In this document: in pieces, positions 1-54,029 of the stretch | Numbering within the stretch: the first letter of the stretch is position 1 | How the letters are laid out: the number at the start of each line of letters is the position of its first letter | Virus record (IMG/VR): IMGVR_UViG_3300045988_085035 | Direction: 5' to 3' (one strand) | Length of the DNA: 60,719 bases | Source of the DNA: a virus | Program-made: the position numbers and the translations under genes | The notes under the pieces: model-generated | The model's database searches: none | Seen by the model: the letters and a program-made list of their open reading frames with translations, nothing else | Told to the model about the DNA's origin: nothing

Positions 1-40
1 AAAAAAAATACCAGGCGGGTTATACCTACCTGGTATTTTT
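1..40. terminator. Bidirectional intrinsic terminator between the last + strand gene and the 3' end of the integrase gene
   Basis: Read directly: A8-TACCAGG-13 nt loop-CCTGGTA-T5. The same sequence recurs at 60621-60660 because of the assembly overlap. Confidence 0.7.
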
Positions 41-41
41 G

Positions 42-1610
42 TTACTCTTTTAAGCTAACGGTTAAAATGAATGAGTTCTTGACCCATTTGAGTTCGACCG
101 TTCGCGCCAAAGTGGAACTTGATGCGCAGCAGGCGAACTCTGCGCCTGCTTTTGCATGTTGTATATCTGCGAGTGTAAGGATATCCAGATCATCTTTAAA
201 ATTGAATGCGATATCAATTTTATCATCATAGACAAAAATGGAATTGATAAATATATTTACAAGTCGTTTTTGAAAATTTCGGTCTTCAATGTCTTCGGAT
301 CTGAGACTTTTTAAGAAGAATTGAATTTCATTTTTGGTCAGATCAAAACCTCTTTCAAGCTCTGCACTTGCCAGAGCTTTTTCTAATGCTGTTTTCTGTG
401 CTTCCAGCTCCTGTACCCTATTAAGTATTGTGTCTGATACAATGCCCCGTTCTATCGTCTTTATAAGATTTTTAATGCCAGATTCTACTTCGGCAATTTT
501 ATTTTTCAATCCATTTACTTTTTCACCAGTGAAATTTGATTTTGCGTAAAACTCCAATGTTTTGTCCGCGATAAACTCCAGAATTGCATCATCTGCCAAC
601 AGGTCTTGCGCTTCTTTCAGCACCAGCGGCTCCAGCAGATCAGCTCGTATAGGTTTCTTTTTGCATCCTGTTTTCTTTCGCTGACTTAGGCAGTTGTAGT
701 AATTGTATTTCGTACCAAGTTTTCCATATCCAGAAGTACCGATCATTTCGGATCCGCAAAGTCCACAGTACAGCTTTCCGGTTAATAGAAAATCTGAATA
801 GTTCCAGCTAGAGTGAGGTTTGCGTTTGTTCACTTTTAACATCTCTTGAACTTTATAGAACGTGTCTTTATCTACGATTGCCGGGATAGCATCTTCGTCG
901 CGTATCAGGTCCTTGTACGTATATATTCCAATGTAACTTTCATTCTTTAAAATCGTTCGTAAGCTGCTTTTCGTGAAAGGTCTTCCATATCTGGTGCGAT
1001 GGCCTTCGGAATTTAGTTGCCGAATAATTTGAGCAGTGCTACATCCGGATGCGTATAGCGCATAGATTTCTTTGATAACAGGGGCTGTGGATTCGTCAAT
1101 CACATATTTTTTATCGACCGCCTTATACCCCAACGGGATGTTACCGCTCAGAACATTATGCTTCTTCGCTCCTTCGTACTGTCCCCTTCGGATATTTTGT
1201 GACAGCTGTAAACTGTAGTATTCTGCCATGCCCTCTAACACGCTTTCCAGAATCACGCCTTCAGGAGAGTCAGGAACATTTTCTGCGACGTATTCCACAC
1301 GCACATCATTCTTTTTACACCGATACTTATTGAACGTGATCTCTTCACGATTTCGTCCGAACCGGTCAACCTTCCAGAGGATAATAACCTGGAATTGTTT
1401 CTTTGCAGTGTCTGAAAGCATCTTTTGAAATTCTTCTCTGTTGTCTGTTCTGCCAGATACCGCGCGGTCAATATATTCATGTATGATCGTATACCCCTTT
1501 GCATCCGCATAGGTGTGCGCTGCGGATAGCTGTCCTTCAATTGACTGCTCACCCTGTGAATGCGAAGAGTATCTTGCATACACAACAGCTCTTATATTAG
1601 TATTGTCCAT
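42..1610 (-). CDS. Large serine recombinase (phage integrase)
   Basis: N-terminal resolvase motifs VVYARYSSHSQ and VDRFGRN, then a recombinase domain, a Cys-rich zinc ribbon (CGLCG...YYNC) and a coiled coil. Start moved from the ORF-track GTG at 1643 to the ATG at 1610 (MDNTNIR), which follows AAGGAGG. Confidence 0.9.
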   Translation of the reverse strand: MDNTNIRAVVYARYSSHSQGEQSIEGQLSAAHTYADAKGYTIIHEYIDRAVSGRTDNREEFQKMLSDTAKKQFQVIILWKVDRFGRNREEITFNKYRCKKNDVRVEYVAENVPDSPEGVILESVLEGMAEYYSLQLSQNIRRGQYEGAKKHNVLSGNIPLGYKAVDKKYVIDESTAPVIKEIYALYASGCSTAQIIRQLNSEGHRTRYGRPFTKSSLRTILKNESYIGIYTYKDLIRDEDAIPAIVDKDTFYKVQEMLKVNKRKPHSSWNYSDFLLTGKLYCGLCGSEMIGTSGYGKLGTKYNYYNCLSQRKKTGCKKKPIRADLLEPLVLKEAQDLLADDAILEFIADKTLEFYAKSNFTGEKVNGLKNKIAEVESGIKNLIKTIERGIVSDTILNRVQELEAQKTALEKALASAELERGFDLTKNEIQFFLKSLRSEDIEDRNFQKRLVNIFINSIFVYDDKIDIAFNFKDDLDILTLADIQHAKAGAEFACCASSSTLARTVELKWVKNSFILTVSLKE

Positions 1611-1679
1611 CTTACTCGTGTCCTCCTTCGTTCTGTGTAGCACTAAAATCCACGAATAACACCTTTCTCAGCCTCTTTA

Positions 1680-2009
1680 TTATGCGAGATACTGGCTCTG
1701 CTTCTTGTATTTATCGCTTGCAAGCAAGCCCTGAAGGAATCCGTCAATCTTTGCGCGATCAGACGCATCCAGCTTTGCATAGTCAGAGTCAAATCCTGCG
1801 AAATCTGATGGATCGTCAGTGCGTCCGAGCAGATAATCAGCAGATATGTGGAATGCATCTGCAATGGCTGCAACAGCCGTTGCGCGTGGTATAGTGCCTT
1901 TTACCTTCCAGCTTGATATAGTTCCTTTCTTCACTCCGATAAGTTCAGCAGTCTTGTCTGAACAGGGGTCAATCCCACGTTTTCTTGCATAAATGTTCGT
2001 AGCGTTCAT
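1680..2009 (-). CDS. XRE-family helix-turn-helix repressor (CI-like)
   Basis: HTH region SDKTAELIGVKKGTISSWKVKGTIP and ISADYLLGRTD are typical of HTH_XRE. Divergent from the early operon and adjacent to the integrase. The start is uncertain: the best SD sits 16 nt upstream. Confidence 0.8.
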   Translation of the reverse strand: MNATNIYARKRGIDPCSDKTAELIGVKKGTISSWKVKGTIPRATAVAAIADAFHISADYLLGRTDDPSDFAGFDSDYAKLDASDRAKIDGFLQGLLASDKYKKQSQYLA

Positions 2010-2037: not shown

Positions 2038-2117
2038 GTTAAAAGAAATTGACTATACCCCCTTGACAAGTCAAAAAAAGTTGACTATAATGCAGTTATC
2101 AGTTAAATAAATTTGAC
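2038..2117 (+). promoter_or_regulatory. Early rightward promoter A (TTGACA 2063-2068, 17-nt spacer, TATAAT 2086-2091) flanked by two 16-bp operators
   Basis: Perfect sigma-70 type hexamers read directly. Operators are GTTAAAAGAAATTGAC (2038-2053) and GTTAAATAAATTTGAC (2102-2117). The same architecture occurs at 15056-15134 and 53929-54007. Confidence 0.75.
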
Positions 2118-2209
2118 AACAAAAAACCAAGCCTCTGAAATTTATAGGGTTTTCAGAAGTTTTAGTTTGGGGGTATTAAGATTGTTGGCACTTTCAATAT
2201 ACCATGTTA

Positions 2210-2828: not shown

Positions 2829-3266
2829 ATGTTTGAAATGAAAATTAATGTTGAAGTAACAGCTACAGAAATTGTAACTGCAATTAATAATTTAGCGAAA
2901 GCAATTGAAAAATTTGGTTCACCGGTAGTAACACCAGTTGTGACTAAAGCAGAGCCAGTACAGGCCGCACCTCAGCCAGTACCTGTTGCACCGGTACCAG
3001 CACCTCAGCCAGTACCTACAGCGGCACCGATGCCGGCACCAACTCCAGCACCTCAGCCAGTACAGCAGGCCGCACCGGAGCCACAGCAGAAAGCAATCAC
3101 AATTGATATGCTTGCCGCCGCAGGCGCTCCACTGGTAGATCAGGGAAAGATGCAGCAGTTAATGGCATTGCTTAATAAGTACGGTGTACAGGCAATCACA
3201 CAGCTCACACCAGATAAATACGATGCATTTGCCGCGGACCTGAGAGCAATCGGAGCACAGATTTAA
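2829..3266 (+). CDS. Hypothetical protein with a Pro/Ala/Gln-rich linker
   Basis: SD AGGAGG. Low-complexity PQPVPVAPVPAPQPVP core between two short folded ends. Confidence 0.5.
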   Translation: MFEMKINVEVTATEIVTAINNLAKAIEKFGSPVVTPVVTKAEPVQAAPQPVPVAPVPAPQPVPTAAPMPAPTPAPQPVQQAAPEPQQKAITIDMLAAAGAPLVDQGKMQQLMALLNKYGVQAITQLTPDKYDAFAADLRAIGAQI

Positions 3267-15158: not shown

Positions 15159-17585
15159 ATGATTTTAAAAAATGACAGGCAATTAACAATATCCGTCGGT
15201 GCCAGTCGTAAGGATACCAGTTGGAAACCGCAGTTAATCACTATCGGAGAACTCTGGGACCGATTAAAAACACCGGTGCGAGGCGTAGAAACAATCACGC
15301 AATATCTGGCTCTGAAGAAATCTCAGCAGGATGATCTGAAAGATGTCGGCGGGTTTGTGGCTGGCGCTTTGAACGGAGGGCGAAGAAAAGCCGATGCGGT
15401 AACCGGCAGGGACATTGTAACTCTTGACTTTGACACTATCCCCGCTTATGGGACAGATGGAATTATTCAGTCCGTTGAGAACATGGGGTGTGGGTATTGT
15501 ATTTACAGTACCCGTAAGCACATGCAGACAGCGCCGAGGTTGCGTATTTTAATCCCACTGGATAGAACGGTTACCGCTGATGAATATGAGCCAATAGCAA
15601 GGCATATAGCCGCTCAGATTGGCATTCAGATGGCAGACCCTACTACATTTCAAGCATCCAGATTAATGTACTGGCCGTCATGCAGTGCAGACGGTGAATA
15701 CATATTCAGGTACAAAGATGCACCGTTGATAATGGCAGATCTGGTGTTAGATGCTTACGATGATTGGCACGACTTTAGTTCATGGCCGCAGGTACCGGGA
15801 GCAGTATCATATCAGAAACTTGCAATGAAGCAGGGCGACCCGGACACAAAGCCCGGTATCGTTGGAACATTTAACAGGGCTTATGGTGACGTGTTCAATG
15901 CCATGGACAAGCTGCTTCCTGGAATCTATGAACCAGTTGACACTGATCCAAATCGGTTCACCTATCTGGGAGGCTCTACAACAGGCGGCGCGGTGATTTA
16001 CGATCACGGCAAATTCCTTTTTTCACACCATGCGACAGACCCTTGTAGTGGAAAGCTTGTAAACGCATTCGACTTGGTTCGGCTGCATAAGTTCGGAGAC
16101 AGGGACGATACGGCGGCACCGAACACGCCAAACAACCGGTTACCATCTTACACAGCAATGTGCGAATTTGCTGTTGCTGACCCGGTTGTATCCGCGTTCA
16201 TGGCAAAAGAGAGGCATGAACAGGCGATGCAGGACTTTAGTAGAATCACACAGAGCAGTAATAATACGACCGCTGACAGTGATTCCTACGATTGGATGCA
16301 GAAGTTACAGCTTAACCCAAAAGCGGGTACCGTAAAGTCCACCATAGATAACATCATCATCATTCTGGACAATGACCCTCTGTTAAAAGGTAAGTTCGCA
16401 CTTAACCAGTTCGCTGGCAGAGGCGAAGTTCTGGGAAAACTTCCATGGAGTATGGACGGCGAAAGACGGTTGTGGAGTGATACAGACAGCAACGGGCTTT
16501 ACTGGTACCTTGAAAAAGCCTATGACATAACAGGACGCGGGAGCATTGATGCGGCTTTAGACATCCATGCAGCTACACACGCGTTTAACGAGGTCCAGGA
16601 TTATATCAAAAAACTGGTATGGGACGGAATCCCGCGACTGGATACGTTATTCATTGATTATCTGGGAGCTGAAGATGATCCGGTAGGGTACACCAGAGCC
16701 GTGTGCAGAAAAGCTTTTACAGCAGCAGTCGCGAGAGCCATGGATCCCGGATGTAAATACGATTGTATGTTGATTCTCTGTGGAGCACAGGGGCTTGGCA
16801 AGTCCACAATTTTAGATAAGATGAGCCGCGGTTGGTTCAATGACAGCATCCGAACATTCGAGGGCAAAGAAGCCTCAGAGCTGTTACAGGGCGTGTGGCT
16901 GGTGGAAGTTGCCGAATTGGACGCTTTCAGACGAACAGACGTTGCGCGAATCAAGCAGTTTCTTTCCCTGAGGGCCGACCGGTACCGCGCCGCTTATGGT
17001 AGGAATGTAAAAGAGCTTCCGAGGTGCTGTGTGTTCTTCGGAACATGCAACCAGATGGATTTTTTGCAGGATACCACCGGAAACAGACGTTTCTGGCCTG
17101 TAGATGTAGGAGAACAGCCCCACACAAAAAATGTATGGCAGAATCTCACACCTGACACGGTAGATCAGATATGGGCTGAAGCTAAAATGCGTTGGATGAT
17201 GGGAGAGCAACTCTATCTTACAGGAGAGGTGGAAAAGGAAGCGCAGAACAGGCAGGAGTCTCACAGAGAAGCATCCCCACGCGAGGGTCTTATACACGAA
17301 TTTGTGGAGAGACAGGTTCCGGATGACTGGTCAAAATGGCCGCTTGACCGCCGCCGTGACTTCTGGGCGAACAATGCGACAGGCGATTACAATCTTGTAA
17401 GTCGTGACCGCATTTGCGCTTTAGAAGTTTGGTGCGAGTTGTTTTTTGGGAACCAAAAAGATATGAAGCCGCAGGATGTGAGAGAAATTAATGCAATTCT
17501 GGCAAACATCCCGCACTGGAAACGGTCAAAAAGCTCTATGCGCTGTGGCCCGTACAGCGTGCAAAGAGGGTTTATACCAGGTTGA
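15159..17585 (+). CDS. Bifunctional DNA primase-helicase (primase-polymerase-like N-terminus plus VirE/D5-like P-loop NTPase)
   Basis: 808 aa. Walker A CGAQGLGKST, Walker B-like VWLVEVAELD, and the downstream NRRFWPV motif typical of phage/plasmid primase-helicases. Confidence 0.8.
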   Translation: MILKNDRQLTISVGASRKDTSWKPQLITIGELWDRLKTPVRGVETITQYLALKKSQQDDLKDVGGFVAGALNGGRRKADAVTGRDIVTLDFDTIPAYGTDGIIQSVENMGCGYCIYSTRKHMQTAPRLRILIPLDRTVTADEYEPIARHIAAQIGIQMADPTTFQASRLMYWPSCSADGEYIFRYKDAPLIMADLVLDAYDDWHDFSSWPQVPGAVSYQKLAMKQGDPDTKPGIVGTFNRAYGDVFNAMDKLLPGIYEPVDTDPNRFTYLGGSTTGGAVIYDHGKFLFSHHATDPCSGKLVNAFDLVRLHKFGDRDDTAAPNTPNNRLPSYTAMCEFAVADPVVSAFMAKERHEQAMQDFSRITQSSNNTTADSDSYDWMQKLQLNPKAGTVKSTIDNIIIILDNDPLLKGKFALNQFAGRGEVLGKLPWSMDGERRLWSDTDSNGLYWYLEKAYDITGRGSIDAALDIHAATHAFNEVQDYIKKLVWDGIPRLDTLFIDYLGAEDDPVGYTRAVCRKAFTAAVARAMDPGCKYDCMLILCGAQGLGKSTILDKMSRGWFNDSIRTFEGKEASELLQGVWLVEVAELDAFRRTDVARIKQFLSLRADRYRAAYGRNVKELPRCCVFFGTCNQMDFLQDTTGNRRFWPVDVGEQPHTKNVWQNLTPDTVDQIWAEAKMRWMMGEQLYLTGEVEKEAQNRQESHREASPREGLIHEFVERQVPDDWSKWPLDRRRDFWANNATGDYNLVSRDRICALEVWCELFFGNQKDMKPQDVREINAILANIPHWKRSKSSMRCGPYSVQRGFIPG

Positions 17586-17853
17586 CATAAAATGTAACAA
17601 AAAGCGTAACAATCGCGTAACATTAGCATTTTTAAACGTTACAATGTTACACTCGTTTGTAACATTGTAACGTTAGTGTAACAAAAAATGTTACACCTGA
17701 AACCCTTGTAAATACTGGTTTTATAAGCATTTGTAACATTGTAACATATATTTCTAATAGACTTATGAAATAGAGGGATTAGGGGAATATAGTACTCCCT
17801 ATTCTCCCTAATTCGTACAGGTCTATACGCGCGCGAGAAGTTTGATACATTTT
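17581..17853 (+). repeat. GTAAC-array repeat, copy 1 (273 bp)
   Basis: Collinear with 53651-53923. Eleven GTAAC/GTTAC pentamers, then the conserved hairpin AGGGATTAGGGGA-N9-CTCCCTATTCTCCCT and GTCTATACGCGCGCGAG. Confidence 0.9.
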
Positions 17854-26356: not shown

Positions 26357-26391
26357 AAAAGAGAACTAATGTTTGCAATAGTTCTCTTTTT
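26357..26391 (+). terminator. Intrinsic terminator after the moron
   Basis: AAAGAGAAC-14 nt loop-GTTCTCTTT followed by TT. Confidence 0.7.
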
Positions 26392-26392
26392 A

Positions 26393-26515
26393 GTTTACAT
26401 AAAACGTAACAAAAAGCGTAACATTATTTTCTAATAGACTTATACAACAGAGGGATTAGGGGATTATAGTACTCCCTATTCTCCCTAATGCGAACACGTC
26501 TATACACGCGCGAGG
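26393..26515 (+). repeat. GTAAC-array repeat, copy 2 (short form, about 123 bp)
   Basis: Shares the first roughly 35 nt (GTTTACATAAAACGTAACAAAAAGCGTAACA) and the last roughly 95 nt (TTTCTAATAGACTTATACAACAGAGGGATTAGGGGATTATAGTACTCCCTATTCTCCCTAAT...GTCTATACACGCGCGAG) with copies 1 and 3. The central array is missing. Confidence 0.85.
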
Positions 26516-28050
26516 AAAACGTAACAGGAGGTGAGAATACGAGCCTGTTTAAGAATTTTATAACACAGATTGGAAGGGTGGTCAGGAAATTGATACCATA
26601 TAAAAGTATTGAGCAGGTCGAAGATATTCAGACCTCTCTATCCACAGATATGACGAATGCATTGGATCGTTGGTATCGGCTGTATCGTAACGAAGCCCCA
26701 TGGCTGGAGCCGGGGAAAGTAAAATCCTTAAATCTTCCGGCATTGGTCAGCTCAGAGATTGCAAGACAGGTAACACTTGAGATGAAGTGGAGCATCACCG
26801 GCAAAAACAAAAACGGCGAGATCAGGGGCGAAGACGGAAAAGACATCATGAACCCCAGAGCAGAGTATCTGAAAGCAGAATTTGAAAAGTGTGTTGACAT
26901 CTTGCGGCAGAAACTGGAACAGGGATGCGCAGCAGGTGGCATGATAATCAAGCCTTATCCAAATGTACAGGACGGGCATTTATACTTTGACTGGACAATG
27001 GATTGGTCAGTTTATCCTATCGCTTTCGACGACGATGGGAACTTGTGTGATGTAGTTATCCCAGATGTATTTACTGAGGGGAAAACCACTTATACACGCT
27101 TGGAACGTCATACGGTTGATGGTTCCAATGTGAAGATCACGCACAGAGCTTTTATGTCAACTGTACCGGAAAGCATTGGCAGGGAAATCCCGCTGACGAT
27201 GGTTGAGCGTTGGGCTTCACTTGCACCGGAAGCGACCGTCACAGATACAGACGGTGTGCTGTTTGGTTGGTATAAAGTAGCAGCGGCAAACAATGTGGAT
27301 GTAGACAGTCCTATGGGGGCTTCGGTGTTCTGTAAAGCTGAAGATGTTATCGAAGAAGCGGATCAGCAGTGGTCACGTCTGCTTTGGGAGTTTGAAGGTT
27401 CAGAACTGGCAGTAGATGTTGACCCGACAGCATTACGTCCGCGAAGAAACGCAGACGGGCTGATGGAAACACCGAAATTGAATGAACGTCTGTTCCGACA
27501 GCTTGACATTGATAAAGGTGACCGAGACCTGTATGAAGTCTTTTCACCGAATATCCGTGATGCAAACCTTGTTAATGGGCTGAACCAGATTCTTTACCGA
27601 GTTGAGGACTTATGTGGACTGTCCAGAGGCACTATTGCAGATGTCAATGACACAGAGCGGACGGCTACAGAGCTGAAGATCAACAAGCAACGGTCTTATG
27701 CCACTATAGCAGACAATCAGAAGGCTCTGGAAGCCTGTTTAAGGAACGTTATCAGGGCAATGGATAAATATGCCACTGTCTATGGTTTAGCCCCTGAGGG
27801 GGACTATGACGTGTCCTTTGACTGGGATGATTCGATACTGACGGACAGAGATCAGCAGAATCAGGAGATGCTGATGCTATTAAATGCTGGTATCATCAGC
27901 AAAGTAGAATATCGAATGTGGTACTATGGCGAAACAAAAGCGCAGGCACAGGCAGCCATTGAAGAAGTACGACAGGAGCAGGCAGAGAGTATGATGTCCA
28001 TGCTTCCGGATATCGGACAGGCTAATTCACCGCCACCAGCGCCCGAATAA
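26488..28050 (+). CDS. Portal protein (SPP1 gp6-like by position and size)
   Basis: 520 aa, the first structural gene after the terminase. The start is uncertain: the ATG at 26488 lies inside repeat copy 2 with no SD, AGGAGG at 26524-26529 is followed by no canonical start codon, and the conserved part begins around SLFKNF. Confidence 0.7.
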   Translation: MRTRLYTREENVTGGENTSLFKNFITQIGRVVRKLIPYKSIEQVEDIQTSLSTDMTNALDRWYRLYRNEAPWLEPGKVKSLNLPALVSSEIARQVTLEMKWSITGKNKNGEIRGEDGKDIMNPRAEYLKAEFEKCVDILRQKLEQGCAAGGMIIKPYPNVQDGHLYFDWTMDWSVYPIAFDDDGNLCDVVIPDVFTEGKTTYTRLERHTVDGSNVKITHRAFMSTVPESIGREIPLTMVERWASLAPEATVTDTDGVLFGWYKVAAANNVDVDSPMGASVFCKAEDVIEEADQQWSRLLWEFEGSELAVDVDPTALRPRRNADGLMETPKLNERLFRQLDIDKGDRDLYEVFSPNIRDANLVNGLNQILYRVEDLCGLSRGTIADVNDTERTATELKINKQRSYATIADNQKALEACLRNVIRAMDKYATVYGLAPEGDYDVSFDWDDSILTDRDQQNQEMLMLLNAGIISKVEYRMWYYGETKAQAQAAIEEVRQEQAESMMSMLPDIGQANSPPPAPE

Positions 28051-30203: not shown

Positions 30204-30311
30204 GCTGAGTACAAATTACCCAGCGTTGCAGGGTTCTAAATGCGACGGTGTGTCAACCGCAGAGTGGCTGCGGATATATAAATTAAATCGAACATACAGG
30301 AGGAGAAGCAG

Positions 30312-30980
30312 ATGGATTTTTTGAAAGAATTTTTTGGTGATGGGGCATTAACCTACGAGCAGCTTCTGGAAAAAGTACAGGAGAATAAATTGAAGGTCGT
30401 GAACATTGCAGACGGTTCCTATGTAAGTCGTGACAAATTCAATGATAAGGTTGATTCCTTGAAACAGCAGGTAGCAGACCTTCAGGGTCAGGTTACTCAG
30501 CGTGACACTGATCTGGCAGGACTCAATGAAAAACTCACAGCTGCACAGGCAGACGCAAGTAAGCTCTCAGATGCACAGGCAGAACTTACCCGCTTACAGT
30601 CCAAGTATGAGACAGACAAGCAGGAATGGGAAGCAAAGAGCGCAAGACAGGCATATGAGTTTATGGTTCGTGAGCGTGCTAACGCCCTGAAATTCACATC
30701 ACCAGCAGCAAAGAGAGACTTTATTGGACAGGCCAATGAAAAAGGCTTCAAAGTGGATGGCGAATCTCTGTTAGGTTATAATGATTTCGTAGCTAAGTAC
30801 ACAGCAGACAATCCGGGGGCACTGGTAGAGGAAAAACCGGCAGGCGATCCGACACCTACACCACCGACAATCGTTATCCCGAATAATGGTCCAAAAGTAT
30901 CTCAGAAAAAAGGACTCATGGAAATGATGAAAGCCAAAAATGAAAACCCAAATATGGTAGTTGATTTTGGCGACAAATAA
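30312..30980 (+). CDS. Scaffolding protein
   Basis: Coiled-coil-rich 222-aa protein directly upstream of the major capsid gene. Confidence 0.7.
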   Translation: MDFLKEFFGDGALTYEQLLEKVQENKLKVVNIADGSYVSRDKFNDKVDSLKQQVADLQGQVTQRDTDLAGLNEKLTAAQADASKLSDAQAELTRLQSKYETDKQEWEAKSARQAYEFMVRERANALKFTSPAAKRDFIGQANEKGFKVDGESLLGYNDFVAKYTADNPGALVEEKPAGDPTPTPPTIVIPNNGPKVSQKKGLMEMMKAKNENPNMVVDFGDK

Positions 30981-47405: not shown

Positions 47406-48488
47406 ATGAATTTTTTGGATAACAAAGATTTGAATGGTACCGCGTATTATTTTCACAGTACCGATGGTGACCGTTATTATGAGGGCATGAACCTCGCTGT
47501 TAAGTTCGCAGAAGAAATTAAAAAGTATTCTGACATCTGGCAGTGGATCAAAGCCAGAATCAAGGCAGGGAACTTTGCGGGTATTCATGTAAATGATTTT
47601 ATTCGTTGGCAGACCACAGACAATAAATGGATCGAGTCACGTGTCGCCGGTATCAACACCTACAGGAGATACGGTGACCGTGAAGTGCCAAACCATATTG
47701 ACTTTATCAGTAAAGACCTGTGGCCGACACTGCATGTAATGAACCCGGTTAATTACAACAACGGTATCATCCCAACTGAGAACCTGTCCGGTGACGGCAC
47801 GAAAACAGCTTTTGTACTGACAAACGAAATGGCAGCTGTCGCAAGCGTGACAATCGGGGGCACTGCTACAACGGCATACACCTATGATGCAGACACACAT
47901 ACAATCACATTTACTGCTGCACCGGCAGCAGGTACAAACAATATTGTAGTAACCGGAACTGGTTCCGAATACCCGTGGTTGGCTTCAGATCTGTATTTGT
48001 ATGCGAACAGTTTAAAGGGTCATGTGGCAGGCGGTACAAGCAAAACATCACCGGTAAAACTGGTAGATTATACAAAAGACGGTATCTGGTCGAAACTTCC
48101 GGAAGCCTTAAAATCTGTAATTGTGACCAAACGTGCATTACTTCCTCAGCGATATTCAGCATCCGGGGTGTTATCAAATAATAATTCCTGGGGCTGGCAG
48201 GATATGGGTAAACTTTGGATTCCATCAGAAATTGAGGTGTACGGACACGGTGTATGGGCTGATAATCCATGGGATAAGGGTGGATTTGTCCAGTATCCAA
48301 TATTCAACTGCAATATGAGGCGTGTAAAAGGACTGGGTGACGGAGGTGGCCGCTACAGCTGGTGGCTGATCTCGGCTTCCGCTGGCTACACCTGCAACTT
48401 CTGTCTTGTCGCCGGCACCGGTGGTGCCAACCACGCCAGTGCTTCCTCCACCTGGGTGGGGCTGCCCGTCTGCTTCCGTATCTCATAA
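47406..48488 (+). CDS. DGR target protein 1 (Mtd-like receptor-binding protein, C-type-lectin/FGE-fold variable C-terminus)
   Basis: The C-terminal 44 aa, YSWWLISASAGYTCNFCLVAGTGGANHASASSTWVGLPVCFRIS, are encoded by VR1. Located in the fiber cluster, immediately upstream of avd-TR-RT. Confidence 0.9.
   Translation: MNFLDNKDLNGTAYYFHSTDGDRYYEGMNLAVKFAEEIKKYSDIWQWIKARIKAGNFAGIHVNDFIRWQTTDNKWIESRVAGINTYRRYGDREVPNHIDFISKDLWPTLHVMNPVNYNNGIIPTENLSGDGTKTAFVLTNEMAAVASVTIGGTATTAYTYDADTHTITFTAAPAAGTNNIVVTGTGSEYPWLASDLYLYANSLKGHVAGGTSKTSPVKLVDYTKDGIWSKLPEALKSVIVTKRALLPQRYSASGVLSNNNSWGWQDMGKLWIPSEIEVYGHGVWADNPWDKGGFVQYPIFNCNMRRVKGLGDGGGRYSWWLISASAGYTCNFCLVAGTGGANHASASSTWVGLPVCFRIS
48345..48477 (+). repeat. 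DGR variable repeat VR1
   Basis: Hand alignment to TR (offset 680 nt) gives about 23 differences, about 21 of them at TR adenines. The 3' 22 nt CCTGGGTGGGGCTGCCCGTCTG are identical. Confidence 0.9.
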
Positions 48489-48501
48489 ATCTTTTAGAAA
48501 T

Positions 48502-48522
48502 CCGGGGGCCTTGTGCCCCCGG
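48502..48522 (+). promoter_or_regulatory. GC-rich hairpin 14 nt downstream of the target-1 stop codon (about 25 nt past the end of VR1); DGR target-recognition hairpin candidate
   Basis: CCGGGGGC-CTTGT-GCCCCCGG (8-bp perfect stem) with no following T-run. A related sequence lies after VR2 at 60579-60600. Confidence 0.6.
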
Positions 48523-48539
48523 TAAGAGGTAAATGAAAT

Positions 48540-49001
48540 ATGAGTAACGTACTTGAAAGGTTCCGCGGTATCTCAGAAATGGAGTTCTATCAGAATGCCA
48601 TAAAGATACGACACGAGATGTCGCACTTTCTTATGAGTGAAAAGAACGTGCCAAAACGCTGGCGATCTGTTTATGCGTATCCGATTATCAACAAAGTGCA
48701 GGAATTGATCGACACGATCATAGATGCAAATAGAATTGTCGCGTACTCGCCTGAGCTGCTGAATGACCGAAAGCAAGGTTTTCAAGATGCTATCGAATTA
48801 ACTGATAAAATCTTTGAACGACTTCAGGGAGCTGTGCAGGACGTGTGGTGGGACATGCTACACAGTGAGCCGGGCAGTTCGGGATACCAGAACCGATTAC
48901 GTATTGAGAAACACGTAGCCGAAATAGGTATTCTTCTGGAATATGAAGAACGTCTGTTAAAAGGCTGCAAATATAAATCGAAACTTGTAAAAAGAAAATA
49001 A
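48540..49001 (+). CDS. avd: Accessory variability determinant (Avd-like four-helix-bundle protein)
   Basis: 153-aa basic helical protein located between VR1 and TR, the canonical Avd position. The call rests mainly on position; sequence similarity was not verified. Confidence 0.7.
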   Translation: MSNVLERFRGISEMEFYQNAIKIRHEMSHFLMSEKNVPKRWRSVYAYPIINKVQELIDTIIDANRIVAYSPELLNDRKQGFQDAIELTDKIFERLQGAVQDVWWDMLHSEPGSSGYQNRLRIEKHVAEIGILLEYEERLLKGCKYKSKLVKRK

Positions 49002-49024
49002 AATATAGTGGTTATATTCTGCAT

Positions 49025-49157
49025 AGTGGCCGCAACAACTGGTGGCTGATCTCTGCTAACGCTGGCAACACCAGCAACTTCTGTAATGTCAACAACAACG
49101 GTAATGCCAACAACAACATTGCTTCCAACACCTGGGTGGGGCTGCCCGTCTGATTCC
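49025..49157 (+). repeat. DGR template repeat (TR)
   Basis: Non-coding copy of VR1/VR2. In the VR reading frame it reads RNNWWLISANAGNTSNFCNVNNNGNANNNIASNTWVGLPV, with 14 AAC/AAT codons. Confidence 0.9.
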
Positions 49158-49475
49158 AAGAAAGAAATCTGATTCCATGTCACTATAGTAGGGTCCAGTA
49201 TAGAGTAGGCTCTTCGGAGCAGAAAACAAGTACCCTTTTTAAGAGTTTTTCTATGGAAGGAGAATATAACCGTCCTGCAGTAAAGCGGGTAAATATGTGC
49301 CTTGACGCGGTTGGCCGGACGCTTCTTGCATGGTCAGGGATGGCGATAATATACGCTGCTTGGAATCCAGCTAAGTACCTGATTACATGACCAGTACCGC
49401 AAAGGAGAACACAACGCGCCCCTACAATAACACTCCGCGAGGCATCTTTATAAAAACAAAAGAGGACTTACTAAT
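49158..49475 (+). ncRNA. TR-RT spacer, candidate structured part of the DGR RNA
   Basis: 318 nt with no credible ORF between TR and the RT start. Contains a GCTC-UUCG-GAGC tetraloop hairpin at 49209-49220. Confidence 0.4.
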
Positions 49476-50678
49476 TTGAATAGTACTGAACGTCATGAAG
49501 CCAAGTACCAACGAAGAAAAGCTGCAAGAGAGGCGAAAAGACGCAAGCACCTCGATCAGTATGACAACTTCAACAACGTAGCCTCGGTTCCAGCTCTTAT
49601 AAGAGCACATTTTGATTCACGAAAAGGCGTTATGTGGAAGGCTTCTGTAGCCAGATATAACGCGCATTTTATTAAATACGCTGTTATGCAGTCCAGAGAT
49701 TTATACACTGGCAAATTCAAATGTTCCGGTTTCTTTATATTCTGGATCATTGAACGGGGTAAAAGAAGACACGTACATAGCTTACACTATGCGGAGCGCG
49801 TGATTCGTCGTTCCTGTTGCATCAATGCTATTGTACCTATTCTTTCCAGTGGGTTGATATACGATAATGGGGCAAGTCTGAAAGGCAAAGGTGTATCGTT
49901 CTCAGTGATGAGATGCGCGGTACATTTACACCAGTATTTCAGGGAAACCGGCAGTAATGATGGATATATCTTGGTTATCGACTTCAAAGGGTATTTCAAT
50001 CATATTTTGCACAAGCCCTTGATGGAGAATGTGATTGATCGTTATATCTTAGATCCAGCGCTGAATGCTCTTGTAAAACAATTCATATCTGCTTCAGATA
50101 TGGAAACGGACAGTGAGAAAGGAAAAGGACTGTATATCGGACCAGAAGACAGTCAGATATATGCAATATCGTATCCAAGTTCTATAGATCATCATATAAA
50201 AGATAAATGGGGACTTAGATTTTATGCCAGATATAATGATGATTCTTATATCATGCTGAAAAGCAAAGAGAAGTTGCTGGAATATAAACAGCAACTTTTT
50301 AGCTTGTATGATGCGCTCGGTATTATTCCGAACCAGAAAAAGACGCAGATCATAAAAATCAGCAGAGGATTTACGTATTTAAAAACCAAATATTTCTTGA
50401 CCGAAACAGGGAAGGTGATTATGAAGCCAGACCACAATGCCATAGTCAGAGAACGTAGAAAGCTGAAGAAGCTAAAGAAGTTTTACGATTCTGAAATCCT
50501 GACATTGCAGCAGATCTGCCAGCAGTATATGTCATGGCGTGGGGCTATTCTGAAAAAGGATGCATTCCGGTCTGTTAAGAATATGGATAAGCTTTTTTAT
50601 TCACTGTACCATGTAAGGCCATGGAGATATAAAAAAGATAAGAAACGGAGGGGTGAATATGAACAGAGAACAGCTTAA
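49476..50678 (+). CDS. DGR reverse transcriptase
   Basis: TTG start after AAGAGGA. LYIGPEDSQIYA matches the DGR-specific (I/L)GxxxSQ motif, and the YxDD box reads RYNDDSY. Located immediately downstream of TR. Confidence 0.9.
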   Translation: MNSTERHEAKYQRRKAAREAKRRKHLDQYDNFNNVASVPALIRAHFDSRKGVMWKASVARYNAHFIKYAVMQSRDLYTGKFKCSGFFIFWIIERGKRRHVHSLHYAERVIRRSCCINAIVPILSSGLIYDNGASLKGKGVSFSVMRCAVHLHQYFRETGSNDGYILVIDFKGYFNHILHKPLMENVIDRYILDPALNALVKQFISASDMETDSEKGKGLYIGPEDSQIYAISYPSSIDHHIKDKWGLRFYARYNDDSYIMLKSKEKLLEYKQQLFSLYDALGIIPNQKKTQIIKISRGFTYLKTKYFLTETGKVIMKPDHNAIVRERRKLKKLKKFYDSEILTLQQICQQYMSWRGAILKKDAFRSVKNMDKLFYSLYHVRPWRYKKDKKRRGEYEQRTA

Positions 50679-51904: not shown

Positions 51905-53602
51905 ATGAATAAACAAAATATCGCAGTGCTCAGAAACATAATCTATGCAGTAGAAAGCGGCGGTCAGATTTACGGTAAGGCGGATTATTCCTGTTTTATC
52001 GGTGCTGGTGCCAATAATTCAAATGAGAAAGCAATCACCATTGGTGCAGGTCAGTGGTATGCAGGTGAGGCGAAAGAGTTACTGTACCGGATTCAGAGAA
52101 TGAACCCGGCACTATTCAAAAAGATGGATACGCAGAAACTGGAAGCGGATCTGCTTATGAAAAACTGGGCGAGCTACACAGTTCGTCCGGGCAGTGATAA
52201 AGCAAAATGCATTGTCAGCATTATCACTACGGATCTCGGAAAGAAATGCCAGGATACCTATATGGAAGACCAGATTGTAGCATACTGCACTTCAATCACG
52301 AAAAAATATGGGGCAATGCAGGATGGTGCCATGATGGAGTGCATCAATATCTTACACCAGGGCGGCAGCGCTGCACTGGACAGAATCCTGTCTAAGACTT
52401 CCAAACCCTATACCGCGGATAAGATTTACAGCACCTTATGCTTAGACCCGGCAGACCATTCATGTGAGACTCAGGTGGGAGATTATGTTGATCGGCAAAA
52501 AGCAGTTATCAGCATGATCCGTAAATATGCGGTAAGTGAAAAGACCGCGGAAGCAAAAAAGGAGGAAACGACAGTGGCGAAAACAGATTTGCAGAAGTTT
52601 AAGGATCTCGGAAATTATTATGCAAATAACGGTGGCACAAAACCGTATCTGGAGAAAAGGACAGAAGCATATCTTGATGATTTTACCAAAAACGCGGGCG
52701 ATAACAACTTCACTAAGTTTGCCAGAGATGTAAACAACTGGGGTCAGCCCGGTTGTCAGGGACAGCCTTGGTGCGCGGAATATCAGTTCTGGAAACTTGT
52801 ACAGGTGAAAGGCATCAAGAAAGCCTTACAGATCATGGGTGGCGGGTTCTACAACTGCCAGTCCATTACTACCCACGCAAAACAGGCGGGTACATGGCAT
52901 CTCACACCGAAAGAGGGTGCATTGGTTATCTTCCGTAATGGCTCACACGTCGGATCCGTGGAGTCTTTCACATCTCAGCGCGTCAATACCAATGAAGGTA
53001 ATACTTCCAGTGCGCCAGGCGTAGTGGCAAATGGCGGGGCCGTGAGGAATAAATCTTACGCTATTAATGATCCGAACATCGACGGATACGTATGGATTGA
53101 CTGGGATGGTGCGGGAGCGTCTGCTACACAGAGCTGGAAGGCTACAGGAACCGCGACAGCGAACGTGGATGAACTCTACGTACGTGAGACGCCAAACGGT
53201 TACATCTTAGGACAGATCAACACAGGCGATCGCGTTGAGGTAGATGGAAAAACATCTGGAAAGTGGACGCATGTTAAGGTTGCTGGCATCGGAATCGGTT
53301 GGATATATACTACATACCTCACGAAAGATGGTACAGCTGCATCCAAGTCTAACACAATTAAGAACAAACAGAATATGGACGAAAAGCTATTCGATGCGAA
53401 AGCAACTGCAAAGACAGCAGTGCGCACCTGGGCGGGTAGCGAATACCCTACCATTAAGAAAATACCATATCTCGGTAAGGGCAAGAGCGTAGAAGTAATG
53501 AACTATACTCAGAAAGATGAAACCGGTCACAAGTGGTATTTTGTCAGAATCAATAAGAAGTATTTAGGATTTGTAGACACTAAGGATATTAAGAAACAAT
53601 AA
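51905..53602 (+). CDS. Endolysin (N-terminal unassigned domain, CHAP-like amidase/peptidase, two C-terminal SH3b-like domains)
   Basis: CHAP-like Cys (GCQGQPWCAEYQFW) and His (GSHVGSVESF). SH3b-like segments YVRETPNGYILGQINTGDRVEV...WTHVKV and VRTWAGSEYPTIKKIPYLGKGKSVEV...KWYFVRI. Confidence 0.8.
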   Translation: MNKQNIAVLRNIIYAVESGGQIYGKADYSCFIGAGANNSNEKAITIGAGQWYAGEAKELLYRIQRMNPALFKKMDTQKLEADLLMKNWASYTVRPGSDKAKCIVSIITTDLGKKCQDTYMEDQIVAYCTSITKKYGAMQDGAMMECINILHQGGSAALDRILSKTSKPYTADKIYSTLCLDPADHSCETQVGDYVDRQKAVISMIRKYAVSEKTAEAKKEETTVAKTDLQKFKDLGNYYANNGGTKPYLEKRTEAYLDDFTKNAGDNNFTKFARDVNNWGQPGCQGQPWCAEYQFWKLVQVKGIKKALQIMGGGFYNCQSITTHAKQAGTWHLTPKEGALVIFRNGSHVGSVESFTSQRVNTNEGNTSSAPGVVANGGAVRNKSYAINDPNIDGYVWIDWDGAGASATQSWKATGTATANVDELYVRETPNGYILGQINTGDRVEVDGKTSGKWTHVKVAGIGIGWIYTTYLTKDGTAASKSNTIKNKQNMDEKLFDAKATAKTAVRTWAGSEYPTIKKIPYLGKGKSVEVMNYTQKDETGHKWYFVRINKKYLGFVDTKDIKKQ

Positions 53603-53615
53603 TATAAGTAGAAAC

Positions 53616-53649
53616 AGGCTCCTGAGGATTACCCTCAGGAGCTTTTTTT
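53616..53649 (+). terminator. Strong intrinsic terminator after the lysis cassette
   Basis: AGGCTCCTGAGG-ATTAC-CCTCAGGAGCTT (12-bp stem) followed by T7. Confidence 0.85.
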
Positions 53650-53650
53650 A

Positions 53651-53923
53651 GTTTACATAAAATGTAACAAAAAGCGTAACAATCGCGTAACATTAGCATT
53701 TTTAAACGTTACAATGTTACAAGCGAGTGTAACATTGTAACACCGATGTTACATTTTCTGTTACGTCGGAAACACTTGATTTTACAGGCTTTGTAAGGGT
53801 TTGTAACATTGTAACATTTATTTCTAATAGACTTATACAACAGAGGGATTAGAGGATTATAGTACTCCCTATTCTCCCTAATTCGTACAGGTCTATACGT
53901 GCGCGAGAAGTTTGATACATTTT
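53651..53923 (+). repeat. GTAAC-array repeat, copy 3 (273 bp)
   Basis: Collinear with 17581-17853. Eleven GTAAC/GTTAC pentamers with the same terminal hairpin and GC-rich box. Confidence 0.9.
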
Positions 53924-53928
53924 GTGAA

Positions 53929-54007
53929 GTTAAATAAAATTGACTAAACCTATTGACAAGTAAAATATTATTGACTATAATTCACGTAACAGTTAAAAAT
54001 ATTTGAC
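53929..54007 (+). promoter_or_regulatory. Promoter C (TTGACA 53953-53958, 17-nt spacer, TATAAT 53976-53981) flanked by two operators
   Basis: Operators GTTAAATAAAATTGAC (53929-53944) and GTTAAAAATATTTGAC (53992-54007). Confidence 0.75.
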
Positions 54008-54029
54008 TTAAAGAAAAGAGGACAAACAT

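What the first reader, a model, noticed from the sequence alone, without database searches (positions are those of the whole stretch)
17581..17853. Three-copy GTAAC-array repeat family with a conserved terminal hairpin, placed at module boundaries
Segments 17581-17853 and 53651-53923 are collinear 273-bp direct repeats. The first roughly 70 nt and the last roughly 115 nt are nearly identical. The centre has diverged but keeps the same motif. Each copy holds 11 GTAAC/GTTAC pentamers, mostly as (T)GTAACA. In copy 1 they start at 17594, 17606, 17617, 17638, 17646, 17659, 17667, 17678, 17690, 17733 and 17741, often 8-12 bp apart and in both orientations. A 123-bp short form (26393-26515) keeps only the ends. 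All three copies finish with TTTCTAATAGACTTAT, an imperfect hairpin AGGGAttAGGGGA-N9-cTCCCTattcTCCCT, and GTCTATAC(G/A)CGCGCGAG. The placement is non-random. Copy 1 starts at the stop codon of the primase-helicase gene. Copies 2 and 3 start on the T-run of strong terminators. Copy 2 runs straight into the SD of the portal gene, and copy 3 runs into promoter C. Candidate roles: (a) a late promoter or activator-binding array that restarts transcription after terminators; (b) an RNA leader hairpin acting in antitermination or processing; (c) iteron-type replication origin(s) next to the primase gene. I know of no described element with this composition.
Basis: partly seen in the sequence, partly recalled or inferred. 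Interest (0 to 1): 0.75.

Follow-up and report, generated by a model that had tools for sequence, protein, structure and literature searches.

The report
Triplicated iteron replication origin cassette
The repeat is most likely the phage's replication origin, an array of short binding sites placed right after the gene for its primase-helicase initiator as in staphylococcal pathogenicity islands; what is unusual is that this gut phage carries three copies at the borders of its gene modules.

Summary
Two collinear 273-bp copies and one 123-bp copy exist. Each long copy holds 11 GTAAC/GTTAC pentamers against 0.44 expected (P about 2e-12).

The window is a complete ~60.6-kb temperate phage of gut Clostridia. 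Copy 1 starts on the stop codon of an 808-aa primase-helicase. Residues 373-796 of that protein match SaPI5 PriRep5 (PDB 7PDS, E 3e-79). PriRep5 is a self-loading initiator-helicase whose C-terminal winged helix binds 6-12 penta- or hexanucleotide iterons placed just after its gene.

Nearly all of the 75 related viral loci fetched carry the same cassette at that spot, with lineage-specific iterons (GTAACA, ATTACA, GTCAACA, CTGACAC and others) around conserved core blocks.

The "terminal hairpin" is weak. It shows no significant covariation and no strand bias, and one arm is missing in some copies.

New here: extra full copies before the portal region and after the lysis genes recur in several lineages, with position-specific signatures and invariant core blocks. 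The window's portal copy is an iteron-to-iteron deletion. Whether the extra copies fire as origins, act like P4 crr, or also drive transcription is unresolved.

Verdict: a new variant of a known kind, of moderate interest.

The parts
15159..17585 (+). Primase / initiator-helicase gene (PriRep-type, VapE/VirE family), 808 aa. Proposed binder of the iterons through its C-terminal domain.
   Evidence: Pfam VapE-like domain, E 1.4e-75. PDB 7PDS (SaPI5 PriRep5), E 3e-79 over residues 373-796. The N-terminal half matches PHROG primase/helicase families.
17581..17853 (+). Copy 1 of the cassette, proposed primary origin. It begins on the stop codon of the initiator gene.
   Evidence: The same position is occupied by a cassette in nearly all of the 75 related viral loci.
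17594..17695 (.). Iteron array: nine GTAAC(A)/(T)GTTAC units in both orientations. Three direct units, a 16-nt AT-rich spacer, then inverted units.
   Evidence: Positions.
17636..17673 (.). Perfect 16-bp palindrome made of two inverted iteron pairs. It is the strongest secondary structure in the element.
   Evidence: DNA fold -15.1 kcal/mol, z -6.65, 0 of 200 shuffles as good. Also inverted repeats I1 and I3.
17700..17721 (.). Small inverted repeat AAACC..(AT-rich)..GGTTT. A similar block occurs in most lineages and in the Sfi21 origin.
Evidence: The fold is weak (z -1.97).
17732..17746 (+). Tandem iteron pair TGTAACATTGTAACA abutting the AT-rich core. In every lineage this pair carries that lineage's own repeat; in a few it is a second repeat type that differs from the main array.
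17747..17775 (.). AT-rich block with the conserved box TTTCTAATAGAC (17751-17762). Candidate unwinding region.
   Evidence: Conserved in the core alignment. The unwinding role is an inference.
17769..17810 (.). Imperfect inverted repeat: (A/T)TAGGG units on the left, CCCTA(A/T) units on the right.
   Evidence: The TAGG/CCTA cores are nearly invariant, but covariation is not significant. There is no strand bias. One arm is missing in the L191 copy.
17821..17837 (+). GTCTATACGCGCGCGAG. This GC box is the most conserved block of the whole family (TATACGCGYG).
   Evidence: Columns are invariant or at least 90% conserved over 30 diverse copies. The function is unknown.
17949..17963 (+). Second TACGCGCG box about 30 nt upstream of the start of the VRR-NUC gene. 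It recurs in several related lineages.
17992..18333 (+). VRR-NUC-type endonuclease gene, the first gene downstream of copy 1. The start at 17992 was chosen by conservation with relatives.
   Evidence: PHROG 93 endonuclease, E 1.8e-24. Synteny in relatives.
26360..26392 (+). Terminator-like hairpin (AGAGAACTA / TAGTTCTCT, 9-nt loop) with a T-run, immediately before copy 2.
   Evidence: Read. Not flagged by the scan because the loop exceeds 8 nt.
26393..26526 (+). Copy 2, the short form: two iterons, the full core, and one downstream iteron (CGTAACA at 26520-26526), then the portal ribosome-binding site. It is a 150-bp iteron-to-iteron deletion of a full copy.
   Evidence: The portal copy is full length in the two closest genomes.
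53616..53644 (+). Intrinsic terminator after the endolysin gene. Its T-run is the start of copy 3.
   Evidence: 12 pairs, 7 of them G-C.
53651..53923 (+). Copy 3 of the cassette, full length, 11 iterons.
   Evidence: An orthologous copy sits after the lysis genes in two close genomes and in contig 3300037454_000132.
53912..54000 (+). Cluster of sigma-A-type promoters directly downstream of copy 3, pointing away from it. It includes TTGACA-17-TATAAT at 53953-53981.
   Evidence: 12 promoter-like sites against 2.3 expected.

Best explanation
The cassette is a replication origin of the SaPI 'Rep/PriRep' type.

Proposed mechanism for copy 1:
- The phage's 808-aa primase-initiator-helicase binds the GTAAC(A) iterons through its C-terminal winged-helix domain.
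- It self-loads as hexamers on the iteron array just downstream of its own gene.
- It melts the adjacent AT-rich core and primes synthesis for the phage's own family-A DNA polymerase.

The iteron sequence differs between phage lineages. The core blocks are shared: the AT-rich TTTCTAATAGAC box, the TAGG/CCTA inverted repeat and the TATACGCGCGYG box.

This phage and several related lineages hold two further paralogous copies, one before the portal region and one after the lysis cassette. I take these to be extra initiator-loading sites. They would be either additional origins or cis-acting partners of the primary origin, as crr is for P4 ori. The window's portal copy has lost nine iterons.

What is shown: the homology of the initiator, the position of the array, the iteron statistics, the family-wide conservation, and the long-term maintenance of the paralogues. 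What is inferred: binding by the C-terminal domain, the site of melting, and origin activity of copies 2 and 3.
For: - Initiator homology: residues 373-796 match PDB 7PDS, PriRep5 of SaPI5, at E 3e-79, and the alignment runs into the C-terminal domain.
- Published behaviour of PriRep5 (PMC9371898): Reps are self-loading initiator-helicases. A C-terminal winged-helix domain recognises penta- or hexanucleotide iterons. Six to twelve iterons lie immediately downstream of rep, around an AT-rich region, in opposite orientations. PriRep5 binds ori5 in EMSA and the mutant lacking the C-terminal domain does not.
- Fit of copy 1: it starts on the stop codon and has 11 pentamers in both orientations.
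- Family-wide conservation: nearly all of the 75 related IMG/VR loci have an array at that spot, with at least 11 lineage-specific iteron types but the same architecture. Cultured relatives do as well: S. aureus phage phi2958PVL and Clostridium phage phiCT453A.
- No competing initiator: no other gene annotated as a replication initiator was found among the replication-module genes scanned. The module holds DUF2800 nuclease, DUF2815 ssDNA-binding protein, PolA, RNase H, VRR-NUC and SNF2.
- Experimental analogue: the 302-bp non-coding region after the primase gene of phage Sfi21 is annotated as 'origin of replication, phage inhibitory sequence' and has the same layout (PMC6356513).
- Extra copies are maintained: they are position-specific orthologues in three genomes. 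A lineage with different iterons has the same three positions, with iterons and core blocks invariant while the rest has diverged to 74%. Seven of ten contigs for which I hold both the primase and portal regions have at least two copies.
- Orientation flips: where copies 1 and 3 diverge, an iteron persists at the same position with flipped orientation (17678 + against 53748 -). This argues for selection on binding sites rather than on the sequence.
Against: - No clear specificity determinant: neither the whole C-terminal domain of the initiator nor any ORF within 4 kb co-varies clearly with iteron type. Only the last ~40 residues show a weak association that is confounded by phylogeny.
- Asymmetric iterons: in copies 1 and 3 the iterons lie almost wholly on one side of the conserved core. 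SaPI origins have them on both sides of the AT-rich centre.
- No direct sign of origin firing: GC skew is uninformative because it follows gene orientation across the genome.
- Copies 2 and 3 have a transcriptional look. They sit after terminators, are co-oriented with the genes, and abut a ribosome-binding site or a promoter.
- Cultured relatives (phi2958PVL, Sfi21) have one array only, so extra copies are not needed for replication in this family.
- The Sfi21 primase gene product next to its origin and its DUF1492 regulator are not detectably homologous to the window's proteins. That parallel is architectural only.
Confidence: 0.7

Rival explanations
1. Regulated promoter cassette. The repeated motif is the binding site of a lineage-specific transcription factor, and the conserved core holds a non-canonical promoter. 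The cassette restarts middle or late transcription after terminators. This could be the only role of the cassette, or an added role of copies 2 and 3.
For: - Copies 2 and 3 begin on terminator T-runs.
- In the window and in L003, L193-195 and L200, the element runs within about 10-25 nt into the portal ribosome-binding site. In several of these a terminator lies just upstream, so portal mRNA must start in the element or read through.
- All copies are co-oriented with the genes.
- A conserved sigma-region-4-like regulator (PHROG 36/248, 19705-20103) is encoded nearby.
- One more iteron nearly always lies 5-10 nt after the GC box, next to the -35 of a downstream promoter where one exists.
Against: - The element contains no convincing sigma-A promoter: the best matches are 9 of 12, no more frequent than in shuffles.
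- In six contexts a separate consensus promoter (TTGnnn-17-TGnTAnAAT) follows the element, so the element is not needed as a promoter there.
- The recognition helix of the nearby regulator is the same across all iteron types, so it cannot read the iterons.
- The primase-adjacent copy has no terminator to overcome.
- The array after a PriRep gene is already explained by published origin biology (PMC9371898).
- Cultured relatives carry the cassette only after the primase gene.
Confidence: 0.17
2. RNA leader element. The terminal inverted repeat folds in the transcript and acts in antitermination or processing, as put or nut sites do.
For: - RNA folds of the three window cores have z-scores of -2.2 to -2.7, and L075 and L216 reach about -5.
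- In L011, both TCCCT arms changed to TCTCT. This keeps G-U pairs on the + strand.
Against: - RNAalifold finds no consensus structure in 30 diverse copies.
- For the named 26-pair structure, 62.2% of cells are paired against 60.8% in shuffles (40 of 500 reach it), and the well-kept pairs are nearly invariant.
- The + strand is no more stable than the - strand over 46 cores: means -17.2 against -18.2 kcal/mol, with the + strand better in only 16.
- One arm is absent in the L191 copy, and the fold differs in the L059 type.
- There is no Rfam hit even at E 10.
- Copies 2 and 3 lie after terminators, so most upstream transcripts would not reach them.
Confidence: 0.04
3. Only copy 1 is functional. 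Copies 2 and 3 are passive products of duplication or of recombination between phages at module borders, and serve at most as homology patches for module exchange.
For: - The copies sit exactly at module boundaries.
- The core blocks are shared by lineages with different iterons, which would give cross-lineage homology.
- The window's portal copy lost 150 bp by iteron-to-iteron deletion without loss of the phage.
- Many family members appear to have one copy.
Against: - The three positions recur in lineages with different iterons, and each paralogue carries its own lineage's repeats.
- Paralogues have diverged to 74-87% identity yet keep every iteron and core block. This is not expected of neutral relics.
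- Position-specific signatures are orthologous across genomes, so there is no sign of frequent conversion or exchange.
Confidence: 0.09

Closest known systems
SaPI replication origins with Rep/PriRep initiator-helicases (SaPI5 PriRep5, PDB 7PDS; PMC9371898)
   Same: The initiator is homologous (E 3e-79). It is a fused primase-helicase of about 800 aa. The origin lies immediately downstream of the rep ORF. It consists of 6-12 penta- or hexanucleotide iterons in both orientations, together with AT-rich DNA. Iteron sequence is element-specific.
   Different: Here the cassette belongs to a 60-kb temperate phage of gut Clostridia, not a satellite island. It occurs in three copies. Iterons lie mostly on one side of a conserved core. 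That core (TTTCTAATAGAC box, TAGG/CCTA inverted repeat, TATACGCGCGYG box) was not mentioned in the passages of the SaPI paper that I read.
Phage P4 ori plus crr, bound by the alpha primase-helicase (from my own knowledge: work of Ziegelin, Lanka and colleagues; not checked here)
   Same: A single primase/SF3-helicase/C-terminal DNA-binding protein recognises short iterons found in more than one cluster dispersed over the genome. The second cluster acts in cis.
   Different: No sequence relationship to P4 alpha was detected in the PDB search. P4 has two clusters 4.5 kb apart, whereas here there are three cassettes 9 and 27 kb apart, each with a complete core.
Streptococcus thermophilus phage Sfi21 origin ('phage inhibitory sequence', PER), NC_000872 34487-34784
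   Same: It is a non-coding region of about 300 bp right after the primase gene. It has GTAAC-type repeats in both orientations, a small AAACCC..GGGTTT inverted repeat, tandem repeats next to an AT-rich stretch, and further repeats before the next gene. When cloned, it blocks phage DNA accumulation in a copy-number-dependent way (PMC6356513).
   Different: The neighbouring Sfi21 primase gene product and its DUF1492 regulator show no detectable similarity to the window's proteins. There is no GC box, and Sfi21 has a single copy.
Bacillus phage SPP1 oriL and oriR (mentioned in PMC13575424; the details are from my own knowledge)
   Same: A Firmicutes siphophage with more than one initiator-binding origin region, one of them outside the replication module.
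   Different: The initiator is of a different kind (G38P plus a loaded DnaB-type helicase), and the repeats and layout differ.

Membership tests
SaPI-type Rep/PriRep iteron origin | An adjacent gene encodes a Rep or PriRep self-loading initiator-helicase (SF3-type ATPase plus a C-terminal DNA-binding domain). | tested here: met
   Residues 373-796 match PriRep5 (7PDS) at E 3e-79, with the alignment reaching the C-terminal domain. Pfam VapE-like domain at E 1.4e-75.
SaPI-type Rep/PriRep iteron origin | The origin lies immediately downstream of the rep ORF. | tested here: met
   Copy 1 begins on the stop codon. The same holds in nearly all of the 75 related viral loci.
SaPI-type Rep/PriRep iteron origin | Six to twelve penta- or hexanucleotide iterons. 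| tested here: met
   There are 11 GTAAC/GTTAC units per full copy, against 0.44 expected (P 2e-12).
SaPI-type Rep/PriRep iteron origin | An AT-rich region near the centre, with at least two iterons on each side pointing in opposite directions. | tested here: inconclusive
   Three + iterons (17594-17621), a 16-nt AT-rich spacer, then two - iterons (17638-17650) fit the rule in form. However, the long conserved AT-rich core (17747-17775) has eleven iterons upstream and none within 60 nt downstream in copies 1 and 3. Copy 2 and most other lineages have one downstream iteron.
SaPI-type Rep/PriRep iteron origin | Iteron specificity is set by the C-terminal domain of the initiator. | tested here: inconclusive
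   There is no domain-wide co-variation. The last ~40 residues give the highest association coefficient, 0.216, and one clade-level signature (FYxGxxY with ATTACA/ATCACA iterons). This rests on few independent events.
SaPI-type Rep/PriRep iteron origin | The initiator binds the origin, and the origin replicates when the initiator is supplied. | not testable with these tools
   This needs EMSA and plasmid amplification assays.
P4 ori/crr system | The initiator is homologous to P4 alpha. | tested here: not met
   PDB sequence searches with the whole protein and with the N-terminal half return only 7PDS, or nothing. No fold comparison was run.
P4 ori/crr system | Iteron clusters at more than one locus are required in cis. 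| not testable with these tools
   Three clusters exist. Whether they are required is unknown.
Sfi21-type PER origin of dairy streptococcal phages | A non-coding repeat-rich region directly after the primase gene. | tested here: met
   Searches compared.
Sfi21-type PER origin of dairy streptococcal phages | Homologous replication proteins. | tested here: not met
   BLASTP of the primase gene products gives E 1.7. The regulators give no alignment.
Known structured RNA families (Rfam 15) | A match to a covariance model. | tested here: not met
   No hit on the element at gathering score. At E up to 10 there are only chance-level matches to eukaryotic microRNA and snoRNA models.
Sigma-A (sigma-70 type) promoter | -35 and -10 hexamers at 16-18 nt spacing inside the element. 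| tested here: not met
   The best matches are 9 of 12, no more frequent than in shuffles. Consensus promoters lie outside the element.

The most novel reading that the evidence does not exclude
The cassette has a dual role as origin and gene-expression switch. The initiator-helicase would load not only at the primary origin but also at paralogous cassettes placed in front of the structural operon and the post-lysis accessory operon. This would give a multi-origin phage replicon in which local unwinding or priming is coupled to transcription of the adjacent module. It would explain three observations: the cassettes sit after terminators, they are always co-oriented with the genes, and a promoter or ribosome-binding site follows within 10-110 nt. 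The invariant TATACGCGCGYG box would be the shared recognition or start site for the conserved part of the machinery.
Probability: 0.25. Interest if true: 0.65.

Novelty: new variant of a known kind. Interest (0 to 1): 0.45.

Why it matters
Origins of phages from gut Clostridia are essentially unmapped. This work gives a simple and transferable rule: look just after the VapE/PriRep gene for a lineage-specific pentamer-to-heptamer array followed by a TATACGCGCG box. The rule locates the putative origin in nearly every one of the related loci fetched here, and in S. aureus Triavirus and Clostridium phages.

The at least 11 iteron types on otherwise similar initiators are a natural specificity series. 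They could be used to study how the PriRep C-terminal domain reads DNA, and to predict which satellites or plasmids could exploit which phage.

The recurring three-copy layout has two possible meanings. If the extra copies are active, it would be a rare case of a multi-origin temperate siphophage. Otherwise it may link replication initiation to late gene expression.

On the practical side, cloned cassettes might act as PER-type decoys against these phages.

Tried and rejected
- DNA similarity to GenBank phages found nothing.
- Rfam gave nothing at gathering score or at E up to 10.
- The 16-mer TTTCTAATAGACTTAT returned mostly chance hits in IMG/VR. Only three contigs were true relatives.
- I looked for the protein that sets iteron type:
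  - sliding-window identity along the initiator;
  - clustering of all ORFs within 4 kb;
  - the recognition helix of the region-4-like regulator;
  - a regression that controls for overall identity.
  None was decisive. That regression sample was dominated by 27 near-identical CTGACAC sequences.
- The CI-like repressor is unlikely to read the motif. The listed GTAACA/TGTTAC positions include none in the 2009-2264 repressor-to-early-gene intergenic region.
- Hairpin tests were negative or weak: RNAalifold, named-structure counts, strand comparison and DNA and RNA z-scores.
- GC and AT skew follow gene orientation across the genome and say nothing about origins.
- CGCG is not depleted or enriched genome-wide, so the GC box is not explained by restriction-site avoidance.
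- Sfi21 proteins are not homologous to the window's, so Sfi21 cannot be used as a family member.
- No supplementary files were held for the SaPI paper, so I could not compare the ori5 sequence.
- I considered a packaging (pac) site and a partition centromere. I set both aside because of the three copies, the integrase-based lifestyle, and the lack of partition genes among the proteins scanned.


Full report
**1. What the window is**

The first and last 99 bases are identical (family D5), so the window is a circularly assembled genome of about 60.6 kb. Its genes mark it as a temperate siphophage of Firmicutes type:
- a serine integrase (42-1643, minus strand) and a CI-like repressor (1680-2009, minus strand);
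- a replication module with DUF2800 nuclease, DUF2815/Enc34 ssDNA-binding protein, family-A polymerase, C5 methylase, RNase H and a VapE-type primase-helicase (15159-17585);
- VRR-NUC and SNF2 genes, then a sigma-region-4-like regulator (19705-20103);
- terminase genes, an Mrr-like gene, the portal gene (to 28050), tail genes, a diversity-generating retroelement and a CHAP/SH3 endolysin (51905-53602);
- about 6 kb of small accessory genes.

Relatives of the primase-helicase lie in metagenome-assembled genomes labelled Lachnospiraceae, Oscillospiraceae, Coprococcus and Eubacterium, from animal and human guts.

**2.

The two 273-nt copies are 87% identical without gaps. The 123-nt copy shares both ends with them.

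Each long copy has 11 GTAAC/GTTAC units, against 0.44 expected from the rest of the genome (Poisson 2e-12). The next-richest 273-nt window in the genome has 4. The largest value in 100 Markov-1 simulations was 5.

The placement claims are also right:
- Copy 1 overlaps the stop codon of the primase-helicase gene.
- Copy 3 starts on the T-run of a strong terminator and is followed by consensus promoters.
- Copy 2 follows a terminator-like hairpin. The scan did not flag it, because its loop is 9 nt. Copy 2 then runs into the portal ribosome-binding site.

One small error: copy 3 ends in ...ACGTGCGCGAG rather than the stated pattern.

**3. The element is one member of a large family with swappable repeats**

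A protein-guided scan of IMG/VR returned 75 loci that encode relatives of the primase-helicase, at 41-99% identity. Nearly all carry a repeat array within a few bases of the stop codon.

The order of parts is constant:
1. an array of a short motif in both orientations;
2. a small AAACCCTT..AAGGGTTT inverted repeat;
3. two tandem motifs;
4. an AT-rich box (TTTCTAATAGAC or a near variant);
5. an inverted repeat of TAGG/CCTA units;
6. a nearly invariant TATACGCGCGYG box;
7. usually one more motif copy 5-10 nt further on.

The motif itself changes with lineage. I saw GTAACA, ATTACA, ATCACA, GTCAACA, GTGACA, GTCTACA, CTGACAC, GGAACA, GTAAACA, CTTACA and GTGAACA.

Cultured phages with the same gene order (VirE, gap, VRR-NUC, SNF2, regulator, terminase) have the equivalent cassette in the 340-360-bp gap:
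- S. aureus Triavirus phi2958PVL has TGATGCAAC repeats.
- Clostridium phage phiCT453A has GGGTACA/GGGAACA repeats.

**4. Identification**

Residues 373-796 of the window protein match PDB 7PDS at E 3e-79. This entry is PriRep5 of the S. aureus pathogenicity island SaPI5.

The paper that describes it (PMC9371898) states the following:
- SaPI Reps are self-loading initiator-helicases.
- A winged-helix domain in their C-terminal domain recognises penta- or hexanucleotide iterons.
- Six to twelve iterons lie immediately downstream of the rep ORF and form the origin.
- An AT-rich region lies near the centre, with iterons in opposite orientations.
- PriRep5 binds its origin in EMSA, and the mutant lacking the C-terminal domain does not.

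The window's copy 1 fits this description point by point. It has a fused primase-helicase of similar length, an array that starts on the stop codon, and eleven pentamers in both orientations. I found no other gene annotated as a replication initiator among the replication-module genes scanned.

A second parallel is architectural. In S. thermophilus phage Sfi21, the 302-bp non-coding region after the primase gene is annotated 'origin of replication, phage inhibitory sequence'. It shows GTAAC-type repeats, the same small inverted repeat, and tandem repeats next to an AT-rich run. When cloned, it blocks accumulation of infecting phage DNA in a copy-number-dependent way (PMC6356513). The Sfi21 proteins are not detectably homologous to the window's, so I use this only as an analogue.

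**5. What I could not show about the mechanism**

If the C-terminal domain reads the iterons, it should co-vary with iteron type. The evidence for this is weak:
- A sliding-window comparison found no region of the protein that stands out.
- After controlling for overall identity, the last ~40 residues gave the highest association. That sample is unbalanced.
- The clearest signature is one clade-level event. Lineages with ATTACA or ATCACA iterons have FYxGxxY where the others have (R/K)xG-PY.

The nearby region-4-like regulator has the same recognition helix in all lineages, so it cannot read the iterons. No ORF within 4 kb of the primase-helicase gene co-varies with iteron type either.

**6. 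The 'hairpin'**

The inverted repeat is real as sequence, but evidence that it works as a folded strand is weak:
- RNAalifold predicts no consensus structure over 30 diverse copies.
- For the 26-pair structure taken from the window sequence, 62.2% of cells pair against 60.8% in shuffles (40 of 500 shuffles reach this). The well-kept pairs are the nearly invariant TAG/CTA cores. Only one pair shows a clear GC-to-CG swap.
- Over 46 distinct cores, the + strand is no more stable than the - strand. This argues against selection for G-U pairs in a transcript.
- As DNA, the window cores fold no better than shuffles. As RNA, z is -2.2 to -2.7.
- One paralogue in another lineage lacks a whole arm.

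The strongest structure in the element is the 16-bp palindrome of inverted iterons at 17636-17673 (z -6.65).

I therefore read the TAGG/CCTA units, the TTTCTAATAGAC box and the GC box as conserved DNA blocks whose reader is unknown.

**7. The extra copies**

A profile of the core found further full cassettes upstream of the portal region in other lineages. Each carries the repeats of its own lineage. Seven of the ten contigs for which I hold both the primase and portal regions have at least two copies.

Contig 3300037454_000132 has GTCTACA and ATAAACA repeats and the same three positions as the window: after the primase gene, before the portal region, and after the lysis genes behind a terminator. 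Its three paralogues share only 74% of alignment columns, yet they keep every repeat, the small inverted repeat, the AT box and the GC box.

In the window's own lineage, each paralogue has a position-specific signature shared by three genomes. The triplication is therefore older than their divergence. The window's short copy is a 150-bp deletion between two iterons of a full portal copy.

By contrast, phi2958PVL and Sfi21 have a single array. The abundant CTGACAC lineage shows one exact tandem pair per contig.

The extra copies are thus maintained by selection in some lineages but are dispensable in the wider family.

**8. What the extra copies do is open**

Possibilities consistent with the data are additional origins, cis-acting partners of the origin (as in P4 ori/crr), or cassettes that also serve transcription.

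In favour of a transcriptional link:
- The copies are co-oriented with the genes.
- They sit behind terminators.
- In several genomes they run straight into the portal ribosome-binding site.

Against the cassette being a promoter itself:
- It holds no convincing sigma-A promoter.
- In six independent contexts a separate consensus promoter follows 15-110 nt downstream and points away from it.

A promoter firing away from an origin would favour melting behind the polymerase. This is known as transcriptional activation of origins such as lambda ori and oriC (from my own knowledge). That arrangement is therefore compatible with the origin reading. This last point is inference only.

**9. Verdict**

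Copy 1 is a new member of a known kind, a SaPI/PriRep-type iteron origin. The recurrent three-copy layout and the conserved core define a new variant of that kind.

Option (b) is unlikely. Option (a) remains a minority possibility for copies 2 and 3.

Noticed in passing
window 47406-50678 and 59782-60576: A diversity-generating retroelement with two targets. The template repeat is at 49026-49157. An RT-2 RNA (Rfam RF03077, 104 bits) lies at 49216-49465, followed by a 400-aa ORF at 49476-50678 that I presume is the reverse transcriptase (not scanned). Variable repeat 1 (48346-48477) lies at the 3' end of ORF 47406-48488. Variable repeat 2 (60425-60556) lies 11 kb away, at the 3' end of a DUF6273 protein gene. 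21 of the 23 template-to-VR1 mismatches are at template adenines.
   Followed up: partly
window 30215-30306: A GP20-a RNA motif (Rfam RF02991, 68 bits, above the gathering score) lies just upstream of ORF 30312-30980 in the head-gene region.
   Followed up: no
window 1-99 and 60621-60719: An identical 99-bp terminal direct repeat. This is most simply the overlap of a circular assembly, so the window is a whole genome. It contains a terminator-like hairpin (ATACCAGGCGGG..CCTACCTGGTAT).
   Followed up: no
window 2094-2125 and 53984-54015: A shared motif (A/C)GT(T/A)A(T/C)CAGTTAAA(T/A)A(A/T)ATTTGAC occurs both in the repressor-to-early-gene intergenic region and just after the consensus promoter that follows copy 3. 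It may be a common operator linking the immunity region with the post-lysis accessory operon.
   Followed up: no
window 26526-26547: The portal ORF as listed starts at ATG 26488, inside the cassette. Alignment with relatives places the real start about 13 nt after AGGAGG, at a CTG codon (26545), where relatives have ATG or TTG. This would be an unusual start codon, or there is a sequencing difference.
   Followed up: partly
window 25371-26276: An Mrr-like restriction endonuclease-domain protein with an N-terminal membrane or SieB-like region is inserted between the large terminase gene and the portal cassette. The two closest genomes have a different sequence there, so this is a moron-type insertion next to the cassette.
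   Followed up: no
L073 6425-6730, L191 6165-6500 and L022 3115-3405; also L070 and L185: Some lineages use two different repeat types in one cassette. One example has a GTCTACA array but an ATAAACAGATAAACAG tandem pair next to the AT box. Another mixes GTCAACA with GTAACA. This hints at two DNA-reading surfaces or two binding proteins.
   Followed up: no
window 2988-3082: A 12-nt periodic repeat (GCACCnnnnCCn) inside ORF 2829-3266 encodes a proline/alanine-rich tract in an early protein of unknown function (PHROG 18562).
   Followed up: no
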